Shown in pieces: positions 8,009 to 59,012 of a stretch of DNA of 64,000 nucleotides. The number at the start of each line of letters is the position of its first letter. Position 1 is the stretch's first letter. A program made the translations under genes and the position numbers. The notes beneath the pieces were generated by a model. It ran no database searches. It saw nothing but the letters and a program-made list of their open reading frames with translations, and was not told where the DNA came from. The stretch comes from Treponema sp. (GTDB lineage Bacteria > Spirochaetota > Spirochaetia > Treponematales > Treponemataceae). The stretch is from positions 3,441 to 67,440 of the forward strand of contig JBQNBN010000003.1 in NCBI GenBank assembly GCA_052169915.1, given 5' to 3'.

Positions 8009-8517
8009 CAGATGAACTCCGTGCGCCGAAGCGCAATCATACTTTCAAATGCGCCGAGCAGTTTAAACAAAACGGGCGCAAAAATCGTGTTTGCCCCAAG
8101 TTCAAACAAAAACGGAAACGATAAAAATCCTTCAGGCAGCGTAATTGCCGGAAAAAAAAGCGAAATGACATAGGTTAAAAGGAATTTAGACACGGTCCCC
8201 GCCGCTCCGAGCATACACGGAATAAAAATTCCTTTAAAATTCAAGGAATCATGAAAAAATCCCGCCGCATATCCGATGATTGTCCGAAAAATGCAGTTAA
8301 ATCCGAACGGGGCTCCCGTCATAAAGTCAAGCGCAAGACCTGAAACAAATCCCGCCGTCTCTCCGTACGTTTTGCCGTTCAAAAGAGAAAAATAGAGCGT
8401 ACTCAAAAGCAAAAAATCCGGTACGACGGGAAGCGCCGTAATATTTGCAAGCAAAGACGTTTCTGCAGTCGCAATACATATGATTATAATAGAAGAAATT
8501 GCAAATGATTTTATCAT
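8008..8517 (-). CDS. mreD: Rod shape-determining protein MreD
   Basis: 169-aa hydrophobic ORF between mreC and mrdA. It overlaps both neighbours by 1-4 nt, and its size and position are typical. Confidence 0.75.
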   Translation of the reverse strand: MIKSFAISSIIIICIATAETSLLANITALPVVPDFLLLSTLYFSLLNGKTYGETAGFVSGLALDFMTGAPFGFNCIFRTIIGYAAGFFHDSLNFKGIFIPCMLGAAGTVSKFLLTYVISLFFPAITLPEGFLSFPFLFELGANTIFAPVLFKLLGAFESMIALRRTEFI

Positions 8518-9380: not shown

Positions 9381-9382
9381 TT

Positions 9383-10420
9383 TTATTCATTGAGGCTGTC
9401 GTAAATCGAATGACCTGAGGACATATCGTGGAAAAGCGCAAACGCCTCCCCCGCTCCGATTGCAACGCAGTCAAGCGGATTTTCCACCAAAATGACGGGA
9501 ACGCCCGTTTCTTTTGAGATGAGTTTCGGAAGTCCTTTGAGCATTGAACCGCCGCCGGTCATAACAATTCCCCTGTCGACGATGTCGGAAGCAAGTTCCG
9601 GCGGCGTCTGCCCGATAACGTTTTTTATCTCTTCTACGATGCGTTTAACCGGCTCTTTCAGCGCTTCGCGCACTTCTACGCTGTCGATTTCAAGGCGGCG
9701 CGGAAGTCCGGTGATGGCGTCCGTGCCTTTCAGTTCCATTTTTTCAATCGTTTTGTCGGGCGCAGCATTTCCAATCTGGATTTTAAGCCTTTCCGCCGTC
9801 TGCTGCCCGATGATGAGGTTATGAACGCTTTTTACGTGCTTTACCAGCGCTTCATTGAATTTATTGCCGCCGACTCTGATGGAACTGGTGATTACCATTC
9901 CGTTGAGCGAAATAACGGAAACTTCAGTCGTTCCGCCGCCGATATCGCAAATCATGTGTCCTGCAGGCTCGTGAATGGGAATTTTTGCGCCGATTGCCGC
10001 CGCAAGAGATTCTGCGATAACTTCAACTTCTTTTGCGCCCGCTTTGAGAGAGGCTTCAATGACGGCGCGGCGCTCAACGTCCGTAATGCACGACGGAATG
10101 CCGATTTTTATCTTCGTGGATTTAATAATTTGCCTTCGCGGCGTAATTTTTGAAATAAAATATTTTATCATGCGCTCCGTGCTGTCAATGTCGGCGATAA
10201 CGCCGTCGGCAAGCGGGCGAATTGCGATAATATTGCTCGGCGTTTTTTCAAGCATATTTTTCGCTTCCGCGCCGACCGCTACAATTCGCTTTGTGCCTTT
10301 TTCGACTGCAACAACGGACGGTTCGTTTATGATAATTCCCCTGCCCTTGATATAAATCAGCGTGTTGCAGGTGCCTAAATCAATTCCTATATTGGTTGAA
10401 AATCTGTCAAGAAATCCCAT
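9383..10420 (-). CDS. mreB: Actin-like rod shape protein MreB
   Basis: 345 aa with phosphate-1 GIDLGTCNT, the connect motif AESLAAAIGA and phosphate-2 DIGGGTTEVSVIS. Confidence 0.95.
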   Translation of the reverse strand: MGFLDRFSTNIGIDLGTCNTLIYIKGRGIIINEPSVVAVEKGTKRIVAVGAEAKNMLEKTPSNIIAIRPLADGVIADIDSTERMIKYFISKITPRRQIIKSTKIKIGIPSCITDVERRAVIEASLKAGAKEVEVIAESLAAAIGAKIPIHEPAGHMICDIGGGTTEVSVISLNGMVITSSIRVGGNKFNEALVKHVKSVHNLIIGQQTAERLKIQIGNAAPDKTIEKMELKGTDAITGLPRRLEIDSVEVREALKEPVKRIVEEIKNVIGQTPPELASDIVDRGIVMTGGGSMLKGLPKLISKETGVPVILVENPLDCVAIGAGEAFALFHDMSSGHSIYDSLNE

Positions 10421-10485
10421 AAATCCTCCCGGATTTTAAACTTTTTAAGAAATCTGCAATTAAATTGCAACTTTCCTTTTGTTAC

Positions 10486-11550
10486 TCATTTATAATCTGA
10501 AAATTTTGCAAGCGCACCCGGATGATTAACTTGGATTTTCAACGCTTTTCGCCAGAGCGAACGCGCTTTGACCAGATTTCCTTGCTTTTCGTATATTACA
10601 CCAAGTCCATAGTATGCGTCAGCAGAATTTTTATTTTTCTGCAAAATGTTTTCAAATTCCTTTTCGGCCTCGTCAAAATTCCCTTCTTCTGTGTAAATCG
10701 TTCCCAAAAGATTCATGCTTTTTAGGGCCAGACTTTGATCGTCCGTTTCATTCTTTATGCGAAACAGATACTGCTTTGCCGCCGTCGCCTGCCCCGCCTT
10801 GTAATACTGTTCGGCAATGGAAAGAAGAAGCGTATACGATTCCCGCACCAGCAGAGCCTCCGTAAAGGCAGAAATACTTTCCATCGGCATGCCGAGCGCG
10901 GCGTAACTTAATCCAAGATATTCCGGAATATCGTCGGCTTTATAGCCGTGCACGGCTGCGCTCCCCAAATACTTTGCCGCCAAATCCGCATAATAATAAG
11001 AAGAAACCGTGTTTTTATAAAAATACGCCTTACCGAGCATATATTCGATTTGCGGGATAAGACTCCGGCGCGCGCCCTGAAAAGCAAGACGCAGCGAATT
11101 GATCGCCTCATCAAGATAGTTTTGCGCGTCGGCTGTTTCAAGTTGAGAAACGGCGATGTAAAAACTTGAATAGCCGCGATAGGTCAACGCTGCGTTATTG
11201 AGCGGATGAAGCGAAAGAATCTTTGTGCTGATGTCATACGCGGCATTATAATCGTATACGCTCCACGCTTTTTTCAGCGCGCCGATTGTCGGAGACTTTT
11301 CGACATGAGCCGTTATAAATCCGTATAAAAAAAATCCGCCGACGGCAAAGGATGCGATGAGAATAAAAGAAATGGTCAATTTCAGTATGAGATAGTTTTT
11401 TTTTCTCGTTACGTCGCCGTTTCGCACAATCATTCTCCGCTCATTTTTTTTATAAGCCGCAAAATCAACCGAACGAAAAGCGTACTCTCCTTTCGTTTTT
11501 ATCCTGCGTTTACTACGCTCAACGCTCTTTGCATCAGAGCAATTTTGCAT
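10486..11550 (-). CDS. Membrane-anchored TPR repeat protein
   Basis: 354-aa ORF with one TM helix (LILKLTISFILIASFAVGGFFLYGF) followed by TPR-like repeats (AYYGLGVIYEKQGNLVKARSLWRKALKI). The exact start is uncertain. Confidence 0.7.
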   Translation of the reverse strand: MQNCSDAKSVERSKRRIKTKGEYAFRSVDFAAYKKNERRMIVRNGDVTRKKNYLILKLTISFILIASFAVGGFFLYGFITAHVEKSPTIGALKKAWSVYDYNAAYDISTKILSLHPLNNAALTYRGYSSFYIAVSQLETADAQNYLDEAINSLRLAFQGARRSLIPQIEYMLGKAYFYKNTVSSYYYADLAAKYLGSAAVHGYKADDIPEYLGLSYAALGMPMESISAFTEALLVRESYTLLLSIAEQYYKAGQATAAKQYLFRIKNETDDQSLALKSMNLLGTIYTEEGNFDEAEKEFENILQKNKNSADAYYGLGVIYEKQGNLVKARSLWRKALKIQVNHPGALAKFSDYK

Positions 11551-46633: not shown

Positions 46634-47593
46634 TTACGTCTTCCCGTCGGACATCTTCTGCAGTAAGTAATCCATTATCCCGTCATCATCGCAGGCGTTA
46701 AGAATCGTTTCCATCATATGCCCGTGAAGCATAGTCCAGTCGTTTTTGATGAACTCAAGGCTTCCGTCAGGTAAGCGGCGGTAGATAAGGCGGAAACTGT
46801 CTGCGTTTCCGTAAATGTCGACAAAAAGCGTGTCCCCGTATTCTTCCGTGCGCTCAACGCGCGTATGTCGCGCGCCGAAAGTCGGAGCCGGATATTCGAT
46901 TATCGTGCCGACAATATCTTTTACGCGGAGACTTTCCGCCTTTCCTGCCGCGCGGATTTTTGAAAACCGCTTGAGTTTTTCAATATGAAAGTCGGTGTTG
47001 TCGCGGTAATCTTCCATTATATAAAGAAGATACCAGTCGTCCCACGCATAAATGAGCCGTACCGGACGCAGCAGGACTTCAGTCTCGCCGTCTTTTACGC
47101 AGCGAACGCAAAGATTTTTGTTCATCGACTGCACAAACGTTTCCGCATCGGAAAAAGTTCCCCAGTTGGAAAGCGCAATCTGGATATTCTCCCGCACCGT
47201 GTGGAAGGTCATTTTTTGCATTTGTCCTGCACGCTCGACGATGGAGCGGAATATATCGTCAATCTGAGGCGCATAAAAAGTCCCGCCGAAAAGCGAATCC
47301 ATAAGGCGCCACGCAAGCGTCAAAACGGCAATGTCGCTCTCACTGTAGGCAAAATCCAAAAGCGCAAAGTCGGGATAGCAGTAAAAATAGCCGCGCTTTT
47401 CATGACTGTATTCGATGGGCGCGCCGAGATTCATTTCCATATACCGAAGGTCGCGCTGAATTGTGCGCTTACTCACCTCAAGTTTTTCCGCAATCTTTTT
47501 CGCCGACGGGCATTTTCCCGCTCGTATCATCTTATCGATTTCAAACATCCGCTTGTACGCCGTGCGGTATTTGTCTTTGAATAATTCATCCAT
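46634..47593 (-). CDS. WYL-domain transcriptional regulator (HTH + WYL)
   Basis: 319 aa with an N-terminal DeoR/HTH_11-type motif (AKKIAEKLEVSKRTIQRDLRYMEMNLGAPIEY) and a central WYL-like region (IYAWDDWYLLYI). Confidence 0.78.
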   Translation of the reverse strand: MDELFKDKYRTAYKRMFEIDKMIRAGKCPSAKKIAEKLEVSKRTIQRDLRYMEMNLGAPIEYSHEKRGYFYCYPDFALLDFAYSESDIAVLTLAWRLMDSLFGGTFYAPQIDDIFRSIVERAGQMQKMTFHTVRENIQIALSNWGTFSDAETFVQSMNKNLCVRCVKDGETEVLLRPVRLIYAWDDWYLLYIMEDYRDNTDFHIEKLKRFSKIRAAGKAESLRVKDIVGTIIEYPAPTFGARHTRVERTEEYGDTLFVDIYGNADSFRLIYRRLPDGSLEFIKNDWTMLHGHMMETILNACDDDGIMDYLLQKMSDGKT

Positions 47594-47852
47594 AATTTCC
47601 TCCGTATGTTTTTTCTTGTTAGATACTGCCTTTCTCCGCCCTTTTCGACTGCAAAAACTGCACTTTACCGTAAGTACTCAGTAATAAGGCGAATAGAAAC
47701 GCCGTCTTTGTCCGTTACGCAAAATTGCCGACTGTCTAGGCTCCATTCCCCGTAACCGGATTGCGTTGCCGCCGCAATGAAAACTCACCCCGGGCGGACG
47801 GCAACTTTGTATTGTCTCTCAAATTTCATTCTATTCCGCCCGCAACATTTCC

Positions 47853-47932
47853 TCAAGTTTTCGATTAGTAAACTTGCAGCAGGCTGAACTCAGTTTAAGT
47901 CTGTCAAATCTTTATAGCACCCACCTGCGCCG
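47853..47932 (+). repeat. Dispersed two-hairpin intergenic repeat (copy)
   Basis: CAAGTTTTCG-ATTA-GTAAACTTG...AAGTCTGTCAAATC...CACCTGCGCCG. It occupies the 5' extension of the ORF-track patatin ORF. Confidence 0.5.
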
Positions 47933-47966
47933 TCTCTTGTCGCCCCCGCTGCGCTATACTTTCCGC

Positions 47967-48782
47967 ATGGAAAAGAAACTCGGTTTAGTATTAGCAGGCG
48001 GAGGCGGAAAGGGAGCGTATCAAGCCGGCGTATGGAAATATTTACGGGAATCAGGCATTGCAGACCGCATTTCCGTATTGTCGGGAACGTCCGTCGGCGC
48101 GCTCAACGCCGCTCTTTTTACTCTTGTACCGTACAAAACGGTGGAACGCATTTGGACGTGCGCCGTCCATGACAAAATCCTTTCGTTGCAGGACAAATCT
48201 CTTCCTGCAATAGAAGACGGATTATCTTTTATTGCAGAGGGACTTTTTAGCGCCGCCTTATCGTCGTTCAAGACAGTTGCGGAAAACGGTATCTGGAGCA
48301 GAGACGGACTTTTGGAAATTATGCAGAGCATTCCGCTTAAAAATCTGCACAATCCCAAAATTCCTTCAGTTTATGCCGCCTGCACAGCCGTTTTTCCTCT
48401 GTTCGGAACCAAATATTTTAGACTAAACGGATACAATATCCCGAAAATCCGAAAAATTCTCCTTGCTTCAAGCGCAATCCCGCTTGCCTTTAAGCCGGAG
48501 ACGATTGACGGCACGCTCTACCTTGACGGCGGACTTACCTGCAACGTACCGCTTGCCCCGCTTATCAGAACACACTGCGCCTGCGCCATCGTAATCACCT
48601 TGTTGGAAAATGCCGAAATAACTCCCCCTCCGCCGCCTCAAATGCGCGTTGTTACAATCCGCCCGTCCGAGCCGCTTGGAAAACTCGGCGCTCTAAACTT
48701 TTCTTCCGCGCGGATACGCCGCTTAATCCGCCTCGGCTATGAAGACACGAAGCGAACGCTGCGTGAGGGGAATTGGTTTTAA
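47967..48782 (+). CDS. Patatin-like phospholipase
   Basis: Reads MEKKLGLVLAGGGGKGAYQAG (oxyanion GGGxxG), with GTSVG (GxSxG nucleophile) and YLDGGL (catalytic Asp). The start is placed at the internal Met after the repeat element. Confidence 0.85.
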   Translation: MEKKLGLVLAGGGGKGAYQAGVWKYLRESGIADRISVLSGTSVGALNAALFTLVPYKTVERIWTCAVHDKILSLQDKSLPAIEDGLSFIAEGLFSAALSSFKTVAENGIWSRDGLLEIMQSIPLKNLHNPKIPSVYAACTAVFPLFGTKYFRLNGYNIPKIRKILLASSAIPLAFKPETIDGTLYLDGGLTCNVPLAPLIRTHCACAIVITLLENAEITPPPPPQMRVVTIRPSEPLGKLGALNFSSARIRRLIRLGYEDTKRTLREGNWF

Positions 48783-48831: not shown

Positions 48832-49131
48832 TTAAAATTTACGCATTACCCTCACTCCCATCCGCGTTTCATTGAATATGAATACATATTCTCCGCTGTC
48901 CGGCACGGTGAAGAAAAAATTACTATTAGACTTCCTGCCTGATGTTGACTTGTAGTCTGCGCTGTCAAGCGGAATAACAGCACGCATGTAATCAAGCGCG
49001 CCCCACTGCTGCGACCAGTTTTCAACAGCAGCGCAAAACTTAAATTGCGCGGTTGTACCGACTGCAAGATATACCGTACACGACCAAACGGCTTCTCCTG
49101 AGGGCGCATCAAGCATCATCCCCATCGCGCC
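48832..49131 (-). other. CBM-like beta-sandwich module, in frame with the upstream ORF across a TGA
   Basis: ..GAMGMMLDAPSGEAVWSCTVYLAVGTTAQFKF...GEYVFIFNETRMGVRVMRKF is homologous to 54251-54652. The preceding codon (49132-49134) is TGA where the paralogue has TGG. Confidence 0.6.
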
Positions 49132-50388
49132 TCAATTATTCATGTTGCCGCGCAAGAACATCGCCGTAGAGACGGCTACGACTACGGCAATGTTTTGCTC
49201 TTCGGCGGCGTAATCTGCGTCCCCCATATCCGAATTAACTTGTCTTTCTCCTTCTACTCGTTCACTGTTTCGGGGGGGGGGGGGGGGGGTAATGATTGCA
49301 AAAGGGGTCCTGTCGCCAAAATTATGTTCCACTACTTTCAAATAAAATATCTTTCCTGAACATGGAGCAAAAATGTTATATGTTGATGAGGAACGAACAG
49401 TTGCTTTCCCTTCAAAGCCGGTTAGATGTGCAATACATTGCCCTTCTTCTACCAGAGCACCATGTTCACAGCCTCTCTGGAGTTCCCATCTGAGTCTATA
49501 ATAACCAGAACTCTCTTTACTAGCAGCATAAGCAGAACTGCCTATTTGATTGAGAATGTGAAGAAAGCCGTTATATGGATTAGTAAGACCATTTTTCTCA
49601 TACTCAGAAAAATAACCGCCGGATGCAGCAGCGTGTTTAGTTACGCAGACTACACTGTTCGTAAGCACTCTATCGATTTCACTTTCAAGCTTTCGCTCAT
49701 ATTCGGTTTGCAGTTCCAAGATTTTTGCGTCTTTCCGGCTCTCGGTCTCTGCCAGCTGCCGTTGATGTTCGGAGCGTTCTTCCGCCGCTTTTTTCTGCGC
49801 GTTCGTCAATTCCCGCTCGTATTCCGTTCTCATCTTTTCAATCTGTGCGTCTTTTTGCTTTAAGGCTTCTTCATCGCGTCCGAACACGCTTGTATCTGCG
49901 GAAAAAAGCGTAATAAAATCCGACGTCTCAAGAATGAGCGCATTTTCAGGCTCTGAATCGGAGCAGGCACAGTCGGCATGGGCGTTTTCATCAACGCAGA
50001 TTGTATATGCAGCATCCAAAACAGAGACAGCAAATTCGTCACCCTTTTTTATTGCGCGCTTGGCTGCCGCAATAAACGGCAGTACGTACTCCGCTTGGAT
50101 AAGGCTGCTGCACTTTGCTTTGAGAGTCAGCGCGTGCAGGCGTTTGGCGGCAGTTCCGTCCCGCCCGCAGTCAACAATGATGAGCGCAAAATCATCGTCG
50201 TCAAAATCATTGATACTGTAGAAGTCTTTTATAAACTCTACAAATGTATCCATATCTTCTGATGTTTCATAATACATACACGGATTTCCGTTTATGCTCA
50301 CGGGGTTTGCATTGCCGCTTGTATCGACGGCAAGCGCCCGCGCCTCTGAAGCGGTAACGACCGCAAGTATTCTATAGCGCGCTTGCAT
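49132..50388 (-). CDS. Island-II family protein A: conserved N-domain, coiled coil, large middle region, poly-Pro
   Basis: The start is at MQARYRILAVV with an AAGGAGG RBS. The N-terminal 150 aa are ~70-80% identical to the paralogues at 54613-55392 and 56655-58589. It ends ...FLRGNMNN at TGA. Confidence 0.7.
   Translation of the reverse strand: MQARYRILAVVTASEARALAVDTSGNANPVSINGNPCMYYETSEDMDTFVEFIKDFYSINDFDDDDFALIIVDCGRDGTAAKRLHALTLKAKCSSLIQAEYVLPFIAAAKRAIKKGDEFAVSVLDAAYTICVDENAHADCACSDSEPENALILETSDFITLFSADTSVFGRDEEALKQKDAQIEKMRTEYERELTNAQKKAAEERSEHQRQLAETESRKDAKILELQTEYERKLESEIDRVLTNSVVCVTKHAAASGGYFSEYEKNGLTNPYNGFLHILNQIGSSAYAASKESSGYYRLRWELQRGCEHGALVEEGQCIAHLTGFEGKATVRSSSTYNIFAPCSGKIFYLKVVEHNFGDRTPFAIITPPPPPRNSERVEGERQVNSDMGDADYAAEEQNIAVVVAVSTAMFLRGNMNN
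49272..49289. repeat. Homopolymeric G18 tract (C18 on coding strand)
   Basis: Counted directly: 18 consecutive G. On the minus strand it encodes T-P-P-P-P-P-R inside family protein A. Confidence 0.95.
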
Positions 50389-50518
50389 ATTATTTTCCTC
50401 CTTCATAAACCTGTTCGGAAACTTCTGGTTCGGAACAGGGTACTTTTAAATGCAATGTTCTCAATCGCGCTGTTTGTGCGATTGAGAACTCGTCAACCCG
50501 TTTGATAACGGAGTGCTT

Positions 50519-51142
50519 TTATTTACGCGATTTTAATGCGTTAGTCAGCGCATCGGAATCGCTGATATTCGGGTTTATTGCCTTTTCAATACCTTTTAAA
50601 GCGGTTTCCGCTTGGGCAAGTTTTTTGTCGTTGTGTTCGGTTCCATTCATGTATCCGAACACAGTTTTTGCCGTGTCGAGACTGCCGCTTATCAGCTTTC
50701 CGAATTCCGTCATACGCGCTTCCGTAAAATACTGCGGATTTGCAATTACATATTTTGCAAATGCCTCCATGGGGAAATCCGGGTATTTTTCTGCAGCAAG
50801 AGCCGAAGTAAGGGTAATTCCTTTTTGCAACTTCTCCTCTTCGGGAATGAGCTTTGATTTTTCAGGATCGACTTTAAATCCTTCCACTGCTTTTACATAT
50901 TTATCATACGAATCAAAATTTTCAGGTTTTATGCCCGCTTCCTCCGCTTGAATTGCTTTGTCTCCCAATTCTTCAGGCTTTGTTTCAGGCTTGATAATGC
51001 CTAATGCCTTTCCCAACGCGACAAAGGCGCTGCCGAGCGCTTTTAATCCCTGAATTGCAAGCCCTGCAATCGCAAGAGCTTTTCCGATTGTCGTTGCCGC
51101 TGCAATAATACTTCCAATGGCTCCAATAATAACTCCGAACAT
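50519..51142 (-). CDS. Hypothetical protein with N-terminal Gly/Ala-zipper segment
   Basis: 207 aa reading MFGVIIGAIGSIIAAATTIGKALAIAGLAIQGLKALGSAFVALGKALGII, then a helical Lys/Glu-rich region. It starts 18 nt after the ATPase stop. Confidence 0.6.
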   Translation of the reverse strand: MFGVIIGAIGSIIAAATTIGKALAIAGLAIQGLKALGSAFVALGKALGIIKPETKPEELGDKAIQAEEAGIKPENFDSYDKYVKAVEGFKVDPEKSKLIPEEEKLQKGITLTSALAAEKYPDFPMEAFAKYVIANPQYFTEARMTEFGKLISGSLDTAKTVFGYMNGTEHNDKKLAQAETALKGIEKAINPNISDSDALTNALKSRK

Positions 51143-51160
51143 AATCGTTCCTCCTAAATT

Positions 51161-54100
51161 TTACATCAGATACCGGCAAATATCTCCACCGATATCCTCT
51201 TTTGTTATATTTTTTGCATCGAACACGCCGATGTAAAAATCCGTAAGTTCCGCAATACGCTTTTGAGTGTCTTCCGGTTTATCATCGCTTTTCGCTTTGC
51301 CTTTCAACAGTTCCCGTCTGCGTATTAAAAGAGTCCATATCTTTTTACGTTCCAGTCCCGTTTTCTGAGAAACTTCTCCGATTGCTTTTTTAAGCTGTTC
51401 GCAGGTTGCACTATCCGGCTCCCTCTTCGAAATACTTTCCGCAACCTTATCGTACAATCTGTAAATAGAGAGAATTTCAAGATCGTCGTAACACTTCCCC
51501 AATTCAGGACGCTTTTCTAAAAACCGCGTGCGGACAACTTCATCGCCGATTTCGCGCTCGTTGGTGTCGGTGATACGCGTAATAAAGACGTGAACGGGTT
51601 TGTCCGTATGTTCGTTAAAGACGACGGCATTTCCCGTTTCAAGGGCTGAAAGATATTCCTTTTGTTTGTCGTCCATCAGCATGGTGTCTCCGACCGCTTC
51701 TTTGTCGTCTTTGGCAAGAATCTTGTGGATAATCTTTGTGTTGGTGTTTTTTAATACCTCAGGCGCAAGTTTATTCGGAATCTGGTCTACGACGATCAGC
51801 CCTTCGCCGTATTTACGAACTTCCGCAAGCAAGTCCGTAAAGGTTTCAACCGCGCCTTTTTTAGAACCGCTGTCGCCGAATTCCACTTTGGAAAGCAGGC
51901 GGTGCGCTTCTTCTATAAGCGTCAGATGTCTATAGTCGGGATTTTCCTTGTGTTTTGCTTTGATAACCGCAGAAAGGCGCGACAAAACAAAGCCCATCAG
52001 AAGCGATTTATCTTCCGGAGACTTCAGCTCTTCCATTTCAAGAATGACGTTATGCTCGGCAATATAGTTAAAGTCGGTGGAATGAGCGCAGTTGAGCATG
52101 GCGCCTTTTGATCCGACGGTCAGATTGGAAAGACGGCTGACAAGCGAACCTTTATAATTTGCCGCAAGTTCCGCTCCGAATCCTTTTTCGCCAACAACGG
52201 CGTCCAATTCCGTCAGCAATTCGGAAAGAATGGGAAAACTGTCCGTATCGGCGTCAAACGCCGCGTCTCCGTAGGAGTCGTTTTCATTCGTGTCGATATT
52301 CCAGCCCTTTTTTTCGTAGCAGCGGTAGATCGCTTCTTCCAAAATCTGCGGCATAGACGCTTCCATCGGGAAAGCGGACGTAAAAGTCGCCTTTACCATA
52401 TCGATATGCGATGAAATCACTTCGCCGGGGATCAGTTCAAACGGGTTTATTCTAAACGGAGAAGCAGTTTCGTTGCCGAGCGTAAAGACGACGATATCTT
52501 TAAACGCGCTTCCCGTGCCGGAGACGTCTCCGTTGATGAGCGTGCGGTATTCGGTTTTTGCAGGCTCAATAACAAGGAAGGGGATTTTTGCCTGTGAAAG
52601 CAGCTTGTGGCAGGTGGTTGTTTTTCCGCTGCCGGTAACGCCTGCGATAAAGGTGTGCTTTGCCATGCTTTTTCGCGAAAGCGTAAACGGCAGTTTTGTA
52701 AGCGGACGCCCGCGCTGTACCATGTAGCCGAGTTCTATCCCCGCCTCTTGCGTTCCGAACGGTTTTTCGTTCAGTCCGAAGTCTACAATTTCTTTAAGCG
52801 GAATGCCGGGAACCTCCGTCTGAGGCAGTCCCGCCAACAGGCTGATTTCAGACGCGGTCAGATAGGTGCAAAGCCCTTCACCGAGTTTTGAATCGGGACG
52901 GGATAAAAGCAGCCGCGCATCTTCGGAAACGGCAGGCTGCGTGTCGTATTGATTTTGGTATGTTTGCAAAATGCCGCAGGTTTCTTCTACGGATTTTTTT
53001 AATTTTTTTGCGATAAGCGGACTGTGAGTCGCCTTATTCCCTTGAAAGATTGACATAAGTCCGACTTTTAGCCGTTCCGCATGGCTTGGTTCCTTTGCCA
53101 TGTAATACACGGACGTCTTAAACGCTCCCTTACCGAGCCCTAAGCGAATGCGCTCTAAAAGCTCTTCTTCCATATATTTCATTAAATCCTGCGCGTGCTT
53201 GTTGGCAAGCTCAAGCGTTACCGCGTTGGACGAACCGCGGTTTTGCGTGCTTGTGCGGCTTTCGCTGTCCGATGTTGTTTCTCCTCTACTTTTTCCACCG
53301 CCTTTTGTATGCGCTTGGCTGCCTCCTTTGTTATGACCGTGGGTTGACCTGCCGGATTCAGTGGAATCATTCTCTCCCCATGTGGTTGTGCTTGTATCGC
53401 TCTCGTTGACGTTGTTCGTTATATTCTCCGATTCCGAATGCGTATTGCCGACTGCAACGGACGAGCCGTCATTTTCACTGTGCTGCAAGGTCAGTTTTGA
53501 GATAAGCGCAAGACGGTTGTAAAGTCCGTATACATTGCGCTGCAAGGAAAGCATTTCATCCCGTGAAACAGGCTCGCATACGACGACCAGTCTCCACTCA
53601 AGTCCGAGCATTGAATTTATAAGCCGGTCTATTCCCTGAAAGTCCTGTTCATCCCCGGCATCTTTTTCATTGACTGTCGGAATGCCGAGTAAAAGCCCCG
53701 CGTTTACTTCTCCTATATTGTTTGAATATAGTTGTGCGCCTTCCAAAAGAAAGTCGTTTGACTGCTTATCTTTTACTTGTTCCAGCGCACTGCCGTTAAA
53801 GTTCCCCTCAAAGGCATTTTTGAGAATCTTTCCGTAGTCGTTTGCGCTCATATATTCGCCGGTTTGACTGTTTCCGGGATTGACGTTTTTTACAATGCCT
53901 ATATATAAGTCAATTCCCCGCTCCGTGCCGGAAAGAACGTATGCAAAATTGAACGCCGGATTATCCAGCGAGGCAAGCACGTTTTCAAACGCTTCTCTGT
54001 GCGGATAATCTTTGTCGAATGCAAGCTGCGTTACCTTAAAAAAGCACGCCGAATTCCTGTCAAGTACGGTTTTCTTGTCCGGCGGAAAACCGATATCCGC

Positions 54101-54199
54101 AAAGGTTTCAATAACCTCGTTTTCTTCCGAATTTTGCAGATCATTAAACAGACTCAAGACTTGAGCCGTCTGCGCCGTCAATTGTGTGGAATCTTCCAT
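51161..54199 (-). CDS. HerA/FtsK-superfamily (DUF87-like) P-loop ATPase with ~480-aa N-terminal extension
   Basis: 1012 aa with Walker A GVTGSGKTTT and Walker B LTLIEEAHRLL. The downstream RKYGEGLIVVDQIPNKLAPEVLKNTNTKIIHKI is typical of HerA-like ATPases. The N-terminal region contains a Ser/Thr/Gly/Asn-rich tract. An AGGAG RBS is present. Confidence 0.85.
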   Translation of the reverse strand: MEDSTQLTAQTAQVLSLFNDLQNSEENEVIETFADIGFPPDKKTVLDRNSACFFKVTQLAFDKDYPHREAFENVLASLDNPAFNFAYVLSGTERGIDLYIGIVKNVNPGNSQTGEYMSANDYGKILKNAFEGNFNGSALEQVKDKQSNDFLLEGAQLYSNNIGEVNAGLLLGIPTVNEKDAGDEQDFQGIDRLINSMLGLEWRLVVVCEPVSRDEMLSLQRNVYGLYNRLALISKLTLQHSENDGSSVAVGNTHSESENITNNVNESDTSTTTWGENDSTESGRSTHGHNKGGSQAHTKGGGKSRGETTSDSESRTSTQNRGSSNAVTLELANKHAQDLMKYMEEELLERIRLGLGKGAFKTSVYYMAKEPSHAERLKVGLMSIFQGNKATHSPLIAKKLKKSVEETCGILQTYQNQYDTQPAVSEDARLLLSRPDSKLGEGLCTYLTASEISLLAGLPQTEVPGIPLKEIVDFGLNEKPFGTQEAGIELGYMVQRGRPLTKLPFTLSRKSMAKHTFIAGVTGSGKTTTCHKLLSQAKIPFLVIEPAKTEYRTLINGDVSGTGSAFKDIVVFTLGNETASPFRINPFELIPGEVISSHIDMVKATFTSAFPMEASMPQILEEAIYRCYEKKGWNIDTNENDSYGDAAFDADTDSFPILSELLTELDAVVGEKGFGAELAANYKGSLVSRLSNLTVGSKGAMLNCAHSTDFNYIAEHNVILEMEELKSPEDKSLLMGFVLSRLSAVIKAKHKENPDYRHLTLIEEAHRLLSKVEFGDSGSKKGAVETFTDLLAEVRKYGEGLIVVDQIPNKLAPEVLKNTNTKIIHKILAKDDKEAVGDTMLMDDKQKEYLSALETGNAVVFNEHTDKPVHVFITRITDTNEREIGDEVVRTRFLEKRPELGKCYDDLEILSIYRLYDKVAESISKREPDSATCEQLKKAIGEVSQKTGLERKKIWTLLIRRRELLKGKAKSDDKPEDTQKRIAELTDFYIGVFDAKNITKEDIGGDICRYLM

Positions 54200-54250
54200 A
54201 ATTACTCCTATTAAACCTGTCCGGAAATTTTTGTTTTGGAACAGGTCTGT

Positions 54251-54652
54251 TTATCTTTTGCGTTTGACTTGTACCGTCATCCGCGTCTCATTGAATATGA
54301 ATGCGTACTCACCGTTTTGCAGGGGCGATATCGTAACCGTAAAGGAAAATTGTTTTTGTCTGCCGTCTATGTATTTTGCATTTTTCGTAATACCGTTTGG
54401 TACTACAGCAGCATTATTAATATTAGCCGGTATACAATATTGCTCCTCTTCAACATTTTCATTTGCGAATACAAAATTTACCGTTCCAACAAAGAGGTTT
54501 ACCCTACACGACCAAACGGCTTCTCCTGAAGACATATCAAGCGTCATCGCCGTTGCGTCCCAGTTATTCATGCTGCCGCGTAAAAACATCGCAGGAGAGA
54601 CGGCAACGGCTCTTACGTTTTGTACCGCAGTCGTTCCATCTGCAGCACCCAT
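54251..54652 (-). other. CBM-like beta-sandwich module ORF, out of frame with upstream family protein B
   Basis: ..AVAVSPAMFLRGSMNNWDATAMTLDMSSGEAVWSCRVNLFVGTVNFVF...GEYAFIFNETRMTVQVKRKR. The open frame extends upstream to the poly-C tract, and one extra C would fuse it to protein B. Confidence 0.65.
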
Positions 54653-55392
54653 GCCCGAATTAACTTGTCCCTCTCTTCTTGATTCGGAGCCGTAGGGCTT
54701 AGTCTCCCTCGTACTTGTACTGGTACCGGAATGTCGGGGGGGGGGGGGGGCAGAGGCTGTTTTTTACGTTCATATTCTGCAAGCCTTCGTTCATAGTTTT
54801 CCTTTTCCCGCTCGTATTCGGCTTTCAGCTCGGCAATTTCAGCGTCCTTTTGCTTTAAGGCTTCTTCATTGCGCCCGAAAACGCTTGCATCTGCGGAAAA
54901 CAGCGCGGTAAAGTCCGCCGCGCCAAGGGTAAGCGCGTTTTCCGACGGCGTTTCATCCGTACCGCAGTGCGCGCAGTCAATACGTCCTTCATCATCGACA
55001 CGGAGCGTATACGCCGCATCCTCAACGGTAACGGCAAACTCATCGCCCTTTTTTATCGCGCGTTTCCTTGCCGCAATAAACGGCAGCACATACTCCGCTT
55101 CAATGAGGCTGCTGCACTTTGCCTTGAGCGTCAGAGCGTGCAGACGTTTGGCGGCAGTTCCGTCCTGCCCGCAGTCAACAACGATAAGCGCAAAATCGTC
55201 GTCATCAAAATCGTTTATGCTGTAATCGTCTTTTATGTACTGCAAAAAACTTTCCATATCGCCGGCGCTCTCATAATACATACACGGATTGCCGTTTATA
55301 CTCACCGGCGTTGTAACGCCTCTTGAGTCCAGCGACAACGCTAATACCTTTTTCTCCGTAACAACCGCCAATATCCTATAGCGCGCTTTCAT
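54613..55392 (-). CDS. Island-II family protein B (N-domain + coiled coil), frame-shifted at poly-C tract
   Basis: 259 aa. After PPPPP the frame reads DIPVPVQVRGRLSPT..., which resembles neither paralogue. The N-terminal 130 aa are nearly identical to protein C. Confidence 0.7.
   Translation of the reverse strand: MKARYRILAVVTEKKVLALSLDSRGVTTPVSINGNPCMYYESAGDMESFLQYIKDDYSINDFDDDDFALIVVDCGQDGTAAKRLHALTLKAKCSSLIEAEYVLPFIAARKRAIKKGDEFAVTVEDAAYTLRVDDEGRIDCAHCGTDETPSENALTLGAADFTALFSADASVFGRNEEALKQKDAEIAELKAEYEREKENYERRLAEYERKKQPLPPPPPDIPVPVQVRGRLSPTAPNQEERDKLIRAWVLQMERLRYKT
54736..54750. repeat. Homopolymeric G15 tract (C15 on coding strand)
   Basis: Counted directly: 15 consecutive G, at the junction between the coiled coil and the C-terminal module of protein B. 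Confidence 0.95.
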
Positions 55393-55633
55393 TCATTTTT
55401 CCTCCGTAGCACAGAAAATTTATTTTCACCTCTCCGAGTGCAGCCATTGTAATTCGTAGTGCGTAATTCTTAATTTGGGAATGCGTGTTTTTAATTTCGC
55501 ATTACGCATCCTTAAATTAAGCATTGCCCTATCTCCGACGGCAAAAAACAGTTTCCTCAAGTTTTGCGTAAGCAAAACCTGAGAGGGCGGCGCACAGTTC
55601 CCATCTTTCAAACTCCATAACAGCCGCCCGCCC
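54889..55633. repeat. ~745-bp direct repeat, copy 1 (5' third of family gene + upstream element)
   Basis: 54889-55437 aligns with 58086-58635. About 450 bp are identical apart from one T indel. After a ~40-bp divergent patch, similarity resumes to 55633 / 58820. Confidence 0.85.
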
Positions 55634-55638
55634 CCTCT

Positions 55639-56553
55639 TCATAGCCCTTCTACCTCCTCTTTTGAAAGACCGGTTGCGCTTGCAATCGATTCGGAAGACA
55701 ATCCCATTGCAAGCAATTTTTTTGCCGTTTCAACTTTCGCTTGGTAAGAGCCTTGTTCCATGCCTTGCGCTATCCCGCGTTCAATTCCTCGTTCAACCCC
55801 GTATTCCATGCCTTGCGCAAAGGCGATTTTGCCGGCTTCTTCGCACCGGACTGCGATGTCCGTGTCGTAATCGTATTCTGCAAGTAACATATTCAGTACC
55901 TCCCGTGATTTTCTTTGCAGATATTCTTTCAAAATATCATTTTTTATGCACTCTTTGATCGCTTCTTCAAAGCTGTGCGCTTTATCGGCTGCCGTATGCC
56001 GGCGGACAGATTCCACAAAGAGGCTGTATTCCTCAAGCGGTTTGCAGTCCCGAAGGATTTTGTTGTTTTTATCCGTGTTGATATTCAAAATCCGTACGGC
56101 AAGCTCTAACGAGGGCGCGGATGATTCTGTCATATAGGCGTCGGAGAGTTTTAAGGTTTTTTGCTCAGGATAATTTTCCCGCCCGTTGTAGAATACGTAG
56201 AATTCCGGCGTTGGGATTTTTTGCAATATCCGAAAATATTTTGCGCGCGGCTCTTGAATCTGCTCGTACAGACGGGCGACGTATTGCAGACAGCGAAGCG
56301 GCATATTTTCATTGACGGTCGACTGGTGCTCGGCTAAGACGATGATTTTATTGTCGATAAGGCACGATACGTCGTTCGATAATTTTGTGTAGACGGCTTG
56401 CTCCAATTTGAGCGTTTTGAGCTCCGTCGTGCGCTCGAGGTGCGTACCGTGCAGGGCGTTGTACAACGACAAAAAGTTATCTTTTGCGTTTTTATCCTCG
56501 CTGAATAGGTCAACAAAAACCGAATCTTTATAACGGCGGTTATGCTTTGCCAT
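55639..56553 (-). CDS. Rpn-family recombination-promoting nuclease / putative transposase (PD-(D/E)xK, YhgA-like)
   Basis: 304 aa with N-terminal YKDSVFVDLF...LEHQS-type core (IIVLAEHQSTVNENMP). The C-terminal repeat reads ERGIERGIAQGMEQG...LSKEEVEGL. Confidence 0.8.
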   Translation of the reverse strand: MAKHNRRYKDSVFVDLFSEDKNAKDNFLSLYNALHGTHLERTTELKTLKLEQAVYTKLSNDVSCLIDNKIIVLAEHQSTVNENMPLRCLQYVARLYEQIQEPRAKYFRILQKIPTPEFYVFYNGRENYPEQKTLKLSDAYMTESSAPSLELAVRILNINTDKNNKILRDCKPLEEYSLFVESVRRHTAADKAHSFEEAIKECIKNDILKEYLQRKSREVLNMLLAEYDYDTDIAVRCEEAGKIAFAQGMEYGVERGIERGIAQGMEQGSYQAKVETAKKLLAMGLSSESIASATGLSKEEVEGL

Positions 56554-56654
56554 AAAATCCTCCTCGATTTGTATTTTATTGCAGCTTCCCTATTTCATAA
56601 AGACTTAAACTCCAATTCAACCGGTTCGGAATTGGAGTTTTCGAACCGGTTTAT

Positions 56655-58589
56655 TTATTCCCGTCCGCCGCAGCTTTTACAAATCCTGAAGCCGGTATAC
56701 CCGTCAATCTCAAAAATTGAAAGGTGAACAGATAAGGAGTATATGTCAGAGGGATTGCAAGCCGAGCCTCCGAATTCGTAGAACGTATTGGCGTTATCTA
56801 CGGCAGTTGTTTCCCATATATTACCGCTCATATCGTATAGGCCGATTGTGTTCGGTTGTTTTTGCGCGACCGGATGCAGTTTGCCGCCGGTATTATCTGC
56901 GTACCATGCGACAGCATCTAAATCATCGCTGCCTGCATATTGAAAACTCTGCTGGTCTTTACCACCGTTGGCAGCATATATCCATTTTGCTGAAGTCGGT
57001 ATGTAATAGCCCTGTTTATTTGAGGAAACAAGTTCATAACACTGTACATAATAGTAACGACCCGGCAGGAGAGATAAAGATTCTGCCGGAATATAGGAAA
57101 TACCATCTTTTTGAGTTTTCTTTTCACAGAAATACTGCATATCTTCATCGGATATATGGATTCTTGATAAGTAGACTTCGTACGAGACTTTGGTGTTAAA
57201 TTTGCTGAACATAATATTATACTTCAATTCATTTTCAGGAGTTCTTCCTACTACATCAAGGTACTCAGCCGCCGTCACAGGTCCTGATTTGTGGTGTTTT
57301 TCTGTTAATTTTATTATTTCATCCAGTCCGTCTTTTTTGCTTTTTTGATTACAAAAAAAGACTTGGTCTTTTATGGAAACGTGCGTTACCGGAACGTCTC
57401 TTCCGTAAAAATCAAGCGCCTGCTCAATAAAGTCTTCCCATGCAAGAAATTTATATTTTGAACGCAGTATTGCGTCCACGTCTGCAAGCGCAGTTTTAGG
57501 CAGCAGCAAGGTTCCGCCTTTTTGCAGTTGTACGAAATGTTCTTTATCGATTTCAGGCGTTTCCAAATAAAAATGCGTTTTGAGGTTGGAAAACGTCTCG
57601 TTCAAATCATCGTGAGACATAGCGCACGCATCTGCTTGAGCGTATGGGTCAAGCGTTTTGAGCAAACCCGCTTGCACGGCGTACATTCCCAAGATCGCAT
57701 CCGGCACCTTTTCCGTTACGTCAAAATATTCCTGCATCGTTACCGGAGTCGCTGCCATATAAAAACTTTCAACCTTTATTCCGTTAAACTCTTCCGAATC
57801 CGGCATATCAATCATGCCGCCTTCAACAAATACCATATCGCTTGGGAGTGTCGTTTGCGCCGCAGGTGCGGGAGTTACTATTGGACTTGTATTGGGATGC
57901 GGCTGCGGGAGCAAAGCGTGATTGCCGTGCGGCTGCGCTGATTCTGCTGTCAATTTTTGAATGAGCTCTTTTTTGTCTTCGCCAAAGTATTCTATAAGCC
58001 CTTGTTCAATATTTTTAAGCTTCCGCTCATACTCCGTCTGCAATTCCAATTCCGCAATCTCCGCATCGCGCCCGAACGCGTTTATATCTGCGGAAAACAG
58101 CGCGGTAAAGTCCGCCGCGTCAAGGGGGAGCGCGTTTTCCGCCGGCGTTTCATCCGTACCGCAGCGCGCGCAGTCAATGCGCCCCTCATCATCAGCGTGG
58201 AGCGTATACGCCGCATCCTCAACGGTAACGGCAAACTCATCGCCCTTTTTTATCGCGCGTTTCCTTGCCGCAATAAACGGCAGCACATACTCCGCTTCAA
58301 TGAGGCTGCTGCACTTTGCCTTGAGCGTCAGAGCGTGCAGACGTTTGGCGGCAGTTCCGTCCTGCCCGCAGTCAACAACGATAAGCGCAAAATCGTCGTC
58401 ATCAAAATCGTTTATGCTGTAATCGTCTTTTATGTACTGCAAAAAACTTTCCATATCGCCGGCGCTCTCATAATACATACACGGATTGCCGTTTATACTC
58501 ACCGGCGTTGTAACGCCTCTTGAGTCCAGCGACAACGCTAATACCTTTTTCTCCGTAACAACCGCCAATATCCTATAGCGCGCTTTCAT
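56655..58589 (-). CDS. Island-II family protein C: conserved N-domain + coiled coil + FGE-sulfatase (SUMF1/CLec-fold) domain with inserts
   Basis: 644 aa. FGE motifs are MVFVEGGMIDMP, YYIPTSAKWIYAANGG and GLYDMSGNIWE...GFRI. The N-terminal 130 aa are identical or near-identical to protein B. Confidence 0.8.
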   Translation of the reverse strand: MKARYRILAVVTEKKVLALSLDSRGVTTPVSINGNPCMYYESAGDMESFLQYIKDDYSINDFDDDDFALIVVDCGQDGTAAKRLHALTLKAKCSSLIEAEYVLPFIAARKRAIKKGDEFAVTVEDAAYTLHADDEGRIDCARCGTDETPAENALPLDAADFTALFSADINAFGRDAEIAELELQTEYERKLKNIEQGLIEYFGEDKKELIQKLTAESAQPHGNHALLPQPHPNTSPIVTPAPAAQTTLPSDMVFVEGGMIDMPDSEEFNGIKVESFYMAATPVTMQEYFDVTEKVPDAILGMYAVQAGLLKTLDPYAQADACAMSHDDLNETFSNLKTHFYLETPEIDKEHFVQLQKGGTLLLPKTALADVDAILRSKYKFLAWEDFIEQALDFYGRDVPVTHVSIKDQVFFCNQKSKKDGLDEIIKLTEKHHKSGPVTAAEYLDVVGRTPENELKYNIMFSKFNTKVSYEVYLSRIHISDEDMQYFCEKKTQKDGISYIPAESLSLLPGRYYYVQCYELVSSNKQGYYIPTSAKWIYAANGGKDQQSFQYAGSDDLDAVAWYADNTGGKLHPVAQKQPNTIGLYDMSGNIWETTAVDNANTFYEFGGSACNPSDIYSLSVHLSIFEIDGYTGFRICKSCGGRE

Positions 58590-58820
58590 TCATTTTTCCT
58601 CCGTAGCACAGAAAATTTTATTTTCACCTCTCCGATATCCCCGCTCCGAGCACAGCAATTATAATGCAGAATGCGTATTTTCAATTCCGCATTACGCATC
58701 CCTCATTAAGCATTGCCCTATCTCCGTCTGCAAACACCAGTCTCCTCAAGTTTTGCGTAAGCAAAACTTGGCAGGGCGGCGCACAGTTCCATCTTTCAAA
58801 CTCCGTAACAGCCGCCCGCC
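58086..58820. repeat. ~745-bp direct repeat, copy 2
   Basis: See copy 1. It includes the hairpin CAAGTTTTGC-GTAA-GCAAAACTTG (58748-58771) and GGGCGGCGC...GCCGCCCGCC. Confidence 0.85.
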
Positions 58821-59012
58821 CTAATTCATCACCCTCCCGTCCTTTTCCATGTTGCCGCTGCCGCAGTTCGGGCAGGCGGGCTTTACGAACGCGGCAAAAA
58901 TTCCTCCGTATTTGGCGCGGAAGGACTTGCCGCACGCCTTGCAGCGCATCGGGACGCTCTCGCCCATACGCGGCGGAATGACGGAATTGTTATTTGCTCC
59001 AAAATTTTTCAT
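58821..59012 (-). CDS. Small zinc-ribbon protein (CxxC...CxxC)
   Basis: Reads MKNFGANNNSVIPPRMGESVPMRCKACGKSF...ACPNCGSGNMEK. A GGAGG RBS lies 6 nt upstream of this Met. Confidence 0.5.
   Translation of the reverse strand: MKNFGANNNSVIPPRMGESVPMRCKACGKSFRAKYGGIFAAFVKPACPNCGSGNMEKDGRVMN

What the first reader, a model, noticed from the sequence alone, without database searches (positions are those of the whole stretch)
54889..58820. ~745-bp near-identical direct repeats bracket the Rpn nuclease and the FGE-encoding 3' cassette (module-swap architecture)
54889-55437 and 58086-58635 align with a constant offset of ~3197 nt. About 450 bp are identical apart from one T indel. After a ~40-bp divergent patch, similarity continues through the upstream hairpin element to 55633/58820.

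Each repeat comprises the promoter-proximal element, the 5' UTR and the first ~165 codons of a family gene. Recombination between them would excise or duplicate a 3.2-kb unit holding the Rpn-family nuclease gene plus the coiled-coil/FGE-encoding part. That would place one shared 5' module on alternative 3' modules.

Rpn proteins are reported to promote RecA-independent recombination in E. coli, so its position exactly between the repeats is suggestive. A third, ~80%-identical copy of the 5' module lies at about 49.9-50.4 kb.
Basis: partly seen in the sequence, partly recalled or inferred. Interest (0 to 1): 0.62.

Follow-up and report, generated by a model that had tools for sequence, protein, structure and literature searches.

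The report
Gene-converted 5' ends of adjacent paralogs
Two neighbouring genes of an undescribed modular gene family in an uncultured Treponema share a recently homogenised 745-bp front end; related strains show that such front ends serve as recombination handles that swap or delete the back ends, while the Rpn nuclease gene between them looks like a passenger.

Summary
The repeat is real. 54889-55633 and 58086-58820 are direct copies 3197 nt apart. A 436-bp core (55002-55437) has no substitutions and one T indel. Flanks on both sides are about 90% identical, and a ~40-bp patch is unalignable.

Each copy is a whole intergenic region plus the first 168 codons of a minus-strand paralogue. The intergenic part holds a dispersed REP-like hairpin element, a promoter-like region and the 5' UTR. 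Gene A continues into coiled coil plus a CBM-like tail. Gene B continues into coiled coil plus an FGE-sulfatase domain. A third paralogue, C, is 75-78% identical.

In the core, dS between A and B is 0, against 0.96 between A and C. This is recent gene conversion nested in an older shared tract.

In a sister Treponema lineage, four haplotypes of the same locus differ by crossovers mapped inside this 5' module. One strain carries two paralogues bracketing a 6-kb unit that another strain lacks. So the "recombination handle / alternative 3' modules" idea is supported on an evolutionary scale.

The Rpn link is not supported. No Rpn was found in 20 related loci (260 kb). The genome's two other full-length Rpn copies sit among housekeeping genes. 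Published work makes Rpn a toxin-antitoxin defence gene.

No reads were available, so switching within this population is untested.

The parts
54889..55633 (-). Repeat copy 1: the whole intergenic region downstream of the Rpn stop, plus the first 168 codons of paralogue A
   Evidence: It starts 6 nt after the Rpn stop codon.
58086..58820 (-). Repeat copy 2: the whole intergenic region downstream of the 63-aa Zn-ribbon ORF, plus the first 168 codons of paralogue B
   Evidence: It starts 1 nt after the Zn-ribbon ORF stop at 58821-58823.
55002..55437 (-). Recent gene-conversion tract (partner 58199-58635): codons 1-130 plus 45 nt of 5' UTR. No substitutions, one T indel.
   Evidence: dS(A,B)=0 against dS(A,C)=0.96 over the same codons.
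55438..55477 (-). Divergent ~40-bp promoter-proximal patch (partner 58636-58667). It holds a promoter-like site in copy A only.
   Evidence: TTAAGA-16-TACAAT at 55473-55446
55516..55633 (-). REP-like dispersed element with a terminator-like hairpin (stem 55584-55555). Partner 58705-58820.
   Evidence: D5, 91%; more than 100 genome-wide copies
54613..55392 (-). Paralogue A as assembled (259 aa): N-domain plus coiled coil. The C15 run at 54736-54750 puts the CBM-like tail (54251-54652) out of frame by one base.
   Evidence: An intact N-domain-coiled-coil-CBM fusion exists in a relative, P0020.
55639..56553 (-). Rpn-family PD-(D/E)XK nuclease gene (304 aa)
   Evidence: TIGR01784 60 bits against a cut-off of 52.1; Transposase_31 24.9 bits against a cut-off of 21; sequence
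56655..58589 (-). Paralogue B (644 aa): N-domain, coiled coil and FGE-sulfatase domain. It is the syntenic counterpart of the single family gene in relatives.
49132..50406 (-). Paralogue C (424 aa). Its 5' module (49849-50404) is 75-78% identical to those of A and B.
50519..54199 (-). HerA/FtsK-like ATPase (51161-54199) and a 207-aa partner (50519-51142). This conserved pair lies between family paralogues here and in L039.
58821..59012 (-). 63-aa Zn-ribbon ORF, the conserved upstream neighbour of the family gene in relatives
46634..48782 (.). HTH_11/WYL regulator (46634-47593, minus strand) and patatin-like phospholipase (47874-48782, plus strand). They are the conserved downstream neighbours of the family gene.

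Best explanation
The two repeats are the front ends of two adjacent, complete paralogues (A and B) of a rare, undescribed Treponema gene family. Each repeat spans the whole upstream intergenic region plus codons 1-168. Family members have a conserved N-terminal ASKHA/RNase-H-like domain, a coiled coil and a variable C-terminal binding module. Modules seen are FGE-sulfatase/C-type-lectin-like, CBM-like, helical, and Sel1 or ankyrin repeats in distant members.

The near-identity comes from ordinary homologous recombination between paralogues. An older shared tract, now about 90% identical, covers the whole 745 bp. A very recent non-reciprocal conversion then re-homogenised 436 bp of it. The conversion tract ends where homology is interrupted, at the divergent patch upstream and at codon 130 downstream. 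Downstream of codon 168, A resembles paralogue C, so A is a B/C mosaic.

The same 5' module serves as the homology handle for reciprocal events that add, delete or exchange 3' modules and whole intervening units. This is visible as alternative haplotypes in sister strains.

The Rpn gene is an independently acquired toxin-antitoxin or defence-type gene lodged in the intergenic slot. It is not the recombinase of the system.

Shown: the repeat anatomy, dS=0 in the core, the mosaicism, the haplotypes in relatives, and the absence of Rpn from those loci.

Inferred: the direction and order of events; that RecA-type homologous recombination is the mechanism; and that the locus (family genes, HerA-like ATPase, p207, patatin, WYL regulator) is a conflict or defence-type system whose sensor modules are being diversified.
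For: Repeat anatomy and nested identity.

Synonymous divergence: A against B is 0 of 85 synonymous sites in codons 1-130. A against C is dS 0.96 over the same codons. A against B in codons 131-168 is dS 0.26. P(0 substitutions in 436 nt) is about 5e-22.

A and B are each other's closest relatives through codon 168 (89-100%, against 62-80% to all others). From codon 169, A is closer to C (76-82% nt) than to B (64%).

Relatives:
- The canonical locus is Zn-ribbon, one family gene, patatin, HTH_11.
- L039 has two paralogues bracketing HerA-p207.
- L018 equals L039 minus the 5987-bp unit between the two 5' modules, with the crossover between -4 and +139 of the module.
- L011 and L040 are further mosaics that place 3' module X next to patatin; L018, like L039, has module Y there.
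- L035 and L016 have 97.5%-identical flanks but different 3' modules after the coiled coil.

Family-wide, the N-domain is always N-terminal with varied C-termini.

Rpn as passenger:
- No Rpn in 260 kb of related loci.
- No flank homology between Rpn copies.
- The two other full-length copies sit among SHMT, tRNA synthetase, Mur ligase, lactate permease and amylase genes.
- The literature describes Rpn as a gene-within-gene toxin-antitoxin defence system with no evidence of transposition (PMC10400941).
Against: No reads or second assembly of this species could be examined, so the linkage across the 436-bp identical core rests on one short-read-style MAG contig.

Exact identity of the core could be partly an assembler effect, if minor variants were collapsed.

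The repeat's upstream edge abuts the Rpn stop codon within 6 nt. Relative to the L039 architecture, the extra DNA equals one repeat unit containing Rpn. A single integration event that brought Rpn in cannot be excluded.

Other windows of this scan also report Rpn genes interleaved with recombining paralogue arrays. This could hint at a real association, although those reports are biased towards such cases.

The defence or conflict role of the family is inferred from neighbours only. PADLOC has no model for the family proteins.
Confidence: 0.7

Rival explanations
1. The repeats are the footprint of a Campbell-type insertion. A circular DNA carrying the 5' module, the FGE 3' module, Rpn and the upstream region integrated by a single crossover in the resident gene's 5' module. 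This duplicated the module on both sides of the incoming 3.2-kb unit, and the unit could excise again.
For: Compared with L039 (Zn-ribbon, family gene, HerA, p207, family gene, patatin), the window's extra DNA equals one 3197-bp repeat unit.

The duplication covers a complete intergenic region and ends at gene boundaries.

L018 against L039 shows that such units are gained or lost through the 5' module in relatives.

L040 keeps a 240-nt remnant of a 3' module upstream of HerA, as expected after permuted re-integration.
Against: Two layers of identity (100% core, about 90% flanks) need at least one further event.

Gene B, with its FGE module and Zn-ribbon neighbour, is the syntenic native arrangement in relatives, so it is not obviously the incoming piece.

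No plasmid or phage relative of the unit was found.

This rival overlaps with the best explanation instead of excluding it.
Confidence: 0.15
2. One reading: a dedicated module-swap device. The Rpn nuclease, placed between the repeats, makes breaks that promote RecA-independent recombination. This excises or duplicates the 3.2-kb unit and switches which 3' module is expressed.
For: Rpn passes the family cut-off and lies exactly between the repeats.

The authors of PMC10400941 speculate that RpnL might initiate local recombination events.

Several other windows of this scan report Rpn genes inside recombining gene arrays (unchecked AI notes).
Against: The same kind of 5'-module shuffling occurs in relatives with no Rpn within 260 kb of sampled loci.

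The two other full-length Rpn copies in this genome are not next to repeats of this kind.

Both paralogues are already complete, independently startable genes, so a swap exposes no new product.

There are no recombinase-type sites or defined ends. Rpn is documented as a toxin-antitoxin defence gene.
Confidence: 0.08
3. Assembly artefact. The exact identity, or the tandem linkage, is produced by a metagenome assembler threading one repeat node twice or merging two strains.
For: The genome is a 142-contig MAG. The 436-bp exact core is longer than usual k-mers. Reads could not be inspected.
Against: The two copies differ by an indel inside the core. They have distinct flanks of about 90% identity that are continuous with unique sequence on both sides.

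The adjacencies FGE 3' end to Rpn, and Rpn to upstream region to 5' module, are unique sequence and must exist in real DNA.

Analogous two-paralogue arrays occur in an independent assembly (L039).
Confidence: 0.05

Closest known systems
Rhs main gene plus orphan C-terminal cassettes in Salmonella Typhimurium (PMC3967940)
   Same: A conserved 5' region is repeated in direct orientation ahead of alternative 3' modules. Homologous recombination between the repeats deletes the intervening DNA and fuses the conserved part to another 3' module.
   Different: Here both copies are full genes with their own start codon, RBS and upstream region, not promoterless fragments. The proteins have no secretion signal that I could see in the sequence, no Rhs/YD repeats, no toxin domain and no immunity genes. 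Recombinants were seen only as haplotypes in relatives, not selected experimentally.
Treponema pallidum tpr paralogue family, with gene conversion and chimeric tpr genes (PMC3656149, PMC7112178; details from my own knowledge)
   Same: A paralogous gene family within the genus Treponema, with conserved end regions and variable parts. Copies are homogenised and made chimeric by gene conversion, and alleles differ between strains.
   Different: The protein family is unrelated. Tpr proteins are outer-membrane proteins, whereas this family has a cytoplasmic-looking ASKHA-like N-domain plus coiled coil. Here whole C-terminal domains are exchanged, and the locus sits with patatin, WYL and HerA-like genes.
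RpnL/RpnS recombination-promoting nuclease toxin-antitoxin systems of E. coli (PMC10400941)
   Same: The gene at 55639-56553 passes the Rpn family model. It has a PD-(D/E)XK-type core and a C-terminal tail with short tetrapeptide-like repeats (ERGIERGIAQGMEQG). It is one of several diverged copies, and tail-only fragments lie elsewhere in the genome.
   Different: Nothing here shows an internal start, toxicity or defence. Identity to E. coli Rpn proteins was not measured. No solved-structure relative was found by sequence.

Membership tests
Gene conversion between paralogues (concerted evolution) | A tract of identity nested inside more diverged paralogous sequence | tested here: met
   436 nt with no substitutions, flanked by 89-90% identity on both sides; P about 5e-22
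Gene conversion between paralogues (concerted evolution) | Identity is not explained by selective constraint, because synonymous sites are also identical | tested here: met
   dS(A,B)=0 in codons 1-130, against dS(A,C)=0.96 over the same codons
Gene conversion between paralogues (concerted evolution) | Discordant relationships of different gene segments (mosaicism) | tested here: met
   A is B-like up to codon 168 and C-like afterwards. B's FGE module is orthologous to the FGE genes of relatives.
Rpn (YhgA-like) recombination-promoting nuclease family | Match to the family profile above the curated cut-off | tested here: met
   TIGR01784 60.0 bits against 52.1. Pfam Transposase_31 24.9 against 21. 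PDDEXK_2 26.3, just below 27.4.
Rpn (YhgA-like) recombination-promoting nuclease family | RpnS antitoxin made from an internal start; toxicity; nuclease or recombination activity | not testable with these tools
   Only the sequence is available. Tetrapeptide-like repeats in the tail were seen by eye.
Programmed cassette switch (orphan-cassette or shufflon type) | Silent, promoterless or 5'-truncated cassettes that need fusion to an expression site | tested here: not met
   Both A and B have an ATG, a GGAGG RBS and a full upstream region.
Programmed cassette switch (orphan-cassette or shufflon type) | A dedicated site-specific recombinase with short defined sites | tested here: not met
   No integrase, resolvase or invertase domain among the genes scanned across 46.6-61.3 kb. 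The repeats are 745-bp gene front ends, not short sites. Rpn is not a site-specific recombinase (PMC10400941).
Programmed cassette switch (orphan-cassette or shufflon type) | Structural variants coexisting within one population | not testable with these tools
   No sequencing runs could be listed for any part of the window.
Simple tandem duplication | Copies are homologous along the whole unit | tested here: not met
   Only 745 of 3197 bp are repeated. The 3' modules (FGE against CBM-like) are unrelated, and Rpn is present once.
Composite transposon / IS-bounded element | Flanking repeats are insertion sequences with a transposase and terminal inverted repeats | tested here: not met
   The repeats are gene 5' ends plus intergenic DNA. 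No inverted repeats of 40 nt or more in 48-64 kb. Rpn copies share no flank homology.

The most novel reading that the evidence does not exclude
The 5' module with its upstream element is a maintained 'recombination handle' of an undescribed Treponema conflict system. The system comprises ASKHA-like N-domain sensor proteins with exchangeable binding modules, a HerA-like ATPase, p207, patatin and a WYL regulator. Frequent conversion keeps the handles identical, so that sensor modules and the HerA-p207 cassette can be swapped within and between strains. The resident Rpn nuclease raises the local exchange rate by making breaks next to a handle.
Probability: 0.1. Interest if true: 0.7.

Novelty: new member of a known kind. 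Interest (0 to 1): 0.38.

Why it matters
The finding documents how an uncharacterised modular gene family in gut-type Treponema diversifies. A conserved 5' module is kept homogeneous by gene conversion, and it is used as the crossover point for exchanging C-terminal binding modules and whole gene units between strains.

This gives a concrete, testable locus for studying the turnover of variable sensor-like genes next to patatin, WYL and HerA-like genes. Concretely, that means PCR or long reads across 54.3-59.0 kb.

It also warns against reading function from the name "recombination-promoting nuclease". Here the evidence points to Rpn as a passenger defence-type gene.

Tried and rejected
- Reads. 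Four attempts to find sequencing runs returned none: the whole locus, Rpn alone, the FGE part, and a housekeeping stretch.
- Sixty relatives' genomes hold no N-domain gene. The GTDB-representative contig scan found only two loci already known. The JGI metagenome scan found none.
- No plasmid or phage relative was found, so a recognisable mobile vector for the unit was rejected.
- Rfam gave nothing for the hairpin or UTR, so a known riboswitch or sRNA was rejected.
- IS or composite-transposon reading: rejected. There are no inverted repeats and no flank homology among Rpn copies.
- Simple tandem duplication: rejected, because the 3' parts are unrelated.
- P0020/P0021 looked at first like 5'-truncated silent cassettes. 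This was rejected, because the truncation is caused by a ~120-bp dispersed-repeat insertion relative to L036.
- The hairpin plus GGAGT after B's stop resembles the hairpin plus RBS in front of HerA. This might be a relic of an earlier B-HerA adjacency. The hairpin belongs to a small dispersed family, so I give it little weight.


Full report
**1. Observation**

The window holds three minus-strand paralogues of one family.
- B: 56655-58589, 644 aa.
- A: 54613-55392, 259 aa as assembled.
- C: 49132-50406, 424 aa.

The repeat finder, whole-assembly BLAST and a global alignment show that 54889-55633 and 58086-58820 are direct copies at a constant offset of 3197 nt. The substructure is as follows.
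- 55002-55437 has no substitutions and one T indel.
- 54889-55001 has 12 substitutions in 113 nt.
- 55438-55477 is unalignable.
- 55478-55633 is about 90% identical.

Each copy begins 1-6 nt after the stop codon of the gene upstream: Rpn for A, and a 63-aa Zn-ribbon ORF for B. Each copy ends at codon 168. It therefore spans a complete intergenic region plus the N-terminal domain.

The third copy (C) is 75-78% identical. The assembly has no further copies. It is a 142-contig, 2.66-Mb MAG, and related records are labelled as uncultured Treponema.

**2. What the repeat is made of**

The 'upstream hairpin element' is a dispersed REP-like repeat with more than 100 copies in this genome. Its second stem, followed by a T-run, scores as a terminator for the Rpn gene.

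A different dispersed repeat of ~108 bp and about 30 copies lies upstream of C.

The divergent patch covers promoter-proximal sequence. Copy A has a TTAAGA-16-TACAAT site there that copy B lacks.

The coding part is an N-terminal domain without a Pfam, NCBIfam or PADLOC model. An AlphaFold model was built from 9 sequences (mean pLDDT 76.6, pTM 0.73). It matches ASKHA/RNase-H-like folds: type III pantothenate kinase, Ppx/GppA and MamK/MreB. Foldseek E-values are about 1e-4 and TM-scores about 0.44, so this is a weak but consistent fold assignment.

An exhaustive phmmer search finds 92 representative clusters. The domain is N-terminal in essentially all of them. The C-termini include FGE-sulfatase, Sel1, ankyrin and others, or have no known domain.

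**3. Gene conversion**

Over codons 1-130, A and B show 0 differences at 85 synonymous sites. A against C has dS 0.96 over the same codons. In codons 131-168, A against B has dS 0.26 and dN 0.07. Constraint therefore cannot explain the identical core.

A and B are each other's nearest relatives through codon 168. From codon 169, A resembles C (76-82% nt) and not B (64%). B's FGE module is the orthologue of the FGE modules of relatives (54-59% aa in the closest group).

A is thus a mosaic with a B-like front and a C-like back. The 745-bp repeat records at least two rounds of exchange, an older one now at about 90% and a recent 436-bp tract.

**4. Comparative evidence for module exchange**

Close homologues exist only in a few uncultured Treponema assemblies.

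The canonical locus is HTH_3, Zn-ribbon, one family gene (N-domain plus FGE), a convergent patatin gene, and HTH_11/WYL. This is syntenic with window 59454-58821 and 48755-46707. Relative to it, the window carries 7.9 kb of extra DNA (Rpn, A, HerA-like, p207, C) between B's stop and patatin.

One relative, L039, has Zn-ribbon, FGE754, HerA-like, p207, FGE592, patatin. Two paralogues there bracket HerA-p207, and their 5' modules are 92.6% identical over 419 bp.

Strains with 93-98% flank identity show the other forms.
- L018 is colinear with L039 on both sides but has one 5' module. It lacks the 5987-bp unit between the two modules.
- L011 keeps 3' module X next to patatin.
- L040 has HerA, p207, then 5' module b joined to module X, then patatin.

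At the 209 sites that distinguish L039's two copies, these strains are clear a/b mosaics. The switches lie inside the 5' module, and there is a recurrent boundary near +400.

In another species, L035 and L016 share 97.5%-identical flanks. They diverge completely after the coiled coil, into a helical module and a CBM-like module respectively.

So recombination in the shared 5' module does place it on alternative 3' modules, and it does insert or delete the intervening unit.

Compared with L039, the window's surplus is exactly one 3197-bp repeat unit.

**5. Rpn**

The 304-aa protein passes TIGR01784 (60 bits against 52.1). It shows a PD-(D/E)XK-type core and a tail with tetrapeptide-like repeats (identified by eye).

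It is one of three full-length copies, the other two being 59% and 67% identical to it at the amino-acid level. Two further partial copies are cut by contig ends (49-51% aa). About seven tail-only fragments lie elsewhere. The copies share no flank homology.

The two other full-length copies lie singly among housekeeping genes: SHMT, a tRNA synthetase, Mur ligase, alanine racemase, lactate permease and alpha-amylase. Only short REP-type repeats lie near them.

None of the 20 related loci (260 kb) contains an Rpn gene, yet they show the shuffling.

Zhong et al. 2023 (PMC10400941) show that Rpn genes are gene-within-gene toxin-antitoxin antiphage systems. They move by horizontal transfer without defined ends, and there is no evidence of transposition. 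A role in local recombination is only speculated there.

I therefore read Rpn as a passenger. The abutment of the repeat to its stop codon, and unchecked notes of Rpn genes in other recombining arrays, keep a small probability for a local stimulatory role.

**6. Consequences of recombination here**

A crossover between the repeats would delete or duplicate 3197 bp. It would leave Zn-ribbon, 5' module, A's 3' part and HerA, which is an L039-like layout.

Both genes are already complete, so no new protein would arise. The outcome would be loss or amplification of the FGE module and Rpn, plus a promoter-region swap.

**7. Limits**

No reads could be reached. Linkage across the identical core, exact identity, and any within-population variants therefore remain unverified. 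The function of the family and of the locus is inferred from its neighbours only: patatin, a WYL regulator and a HerA-like ATPase.

**8. Verdict**

The recombination-handle and module-exchange idea holds. Rpn-driven programmed switching does not.
- This is a clear example of a known process, paralogue gene conversion and module exchange, in a previously undescribed gene family.

Noticed in passing
window 55516-55633 and 58705-58820; many contigs of G000: A composite two-hairpin REP-like intergenic element of ~80-115 bp with more than 100 diverged copies (72-87% identity) across the assembly. Here it doubles as a terminator-like hairpin after Rpn.
   Followed up: partly
window 50407-50520: A second dispersed repeat family of ~108 bp with about 30 copies at 74-84% identity. 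It is inserted between p207 and paralogue C. In L039 the corresponding gap is only 12 nt.
   Followed up: partly
window 54736-54750: A C15 run in A's linker puts the CBM-like tail (54251-54652) one base out of frame; 16 C would restore it. A relative (P0020) encodes the intact N-domain-coiled-coil-CBM fusion, so the fused form is the functional design.
   Followed up: partly
window 49132-49134 and 48832-49125: Paralogue C stops at ...FLRGNMNN*, exactly where A's frame continues ...FLRGSMNNWD into the CBM-like domain. A CBM-like ORF follows C's stop.
   Followed up: no
window 50519-54280 against L039:6243-9978 and L040:4497-8232: The HerA-like ATPase and p207 are 86-90% identical (aa; 84-85% nt) to those of another Treponema lineage. 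The flanking patatin, HTH_11 and N-domains are only 65-75% aa. This suggests recent lateral exchange of the HerA-p207 cassette.
   Followed up: partly
G000 contigs C75, C7, C13, C64 (two), C103, C112: Free-standing matches to only the last ~50 aa of the Rpn protein. They are possibly stand-alone RpnS-like tail genes, like E. coli ypaA.
   Followed up: no
L035:8802-8921 and L016 (P0020/P0021 genes): In another Treponema species a ~120-bp dispersed repeat is inserted in the first 45 codons of the family gene, relative to L036. The called proteins therefore start at Met46.
   Followed up: partly
window 56607-56651 and 54215-54246; L039:6279-6326: The hairpin plus GGAGT that precedes the HerA start codon, after A and after L039's first paralogue, also follows B's stop. 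It may be a relic of a former B-HerA adjacency, or another small dispersed hairpin family.
   Followed up: partly
window 55490-55515 and 58680-58705 (minus strand): A conserved ATGCGTAATGCG...ACGCAT motif lies upstream of both A and B. It is a candidate operator for the neighbouring HTH regulators.
   Followed up: no
L031 (G262:C36) 6720-10838: In a distant spirochaete, a 43%-identical HerA-like ATPase is followed by two p207-like genes and preceded by large ORFs, but there is no N-domain family gene. HerA-p207 is therefore an independent conserved pair.
   Followed up: partly
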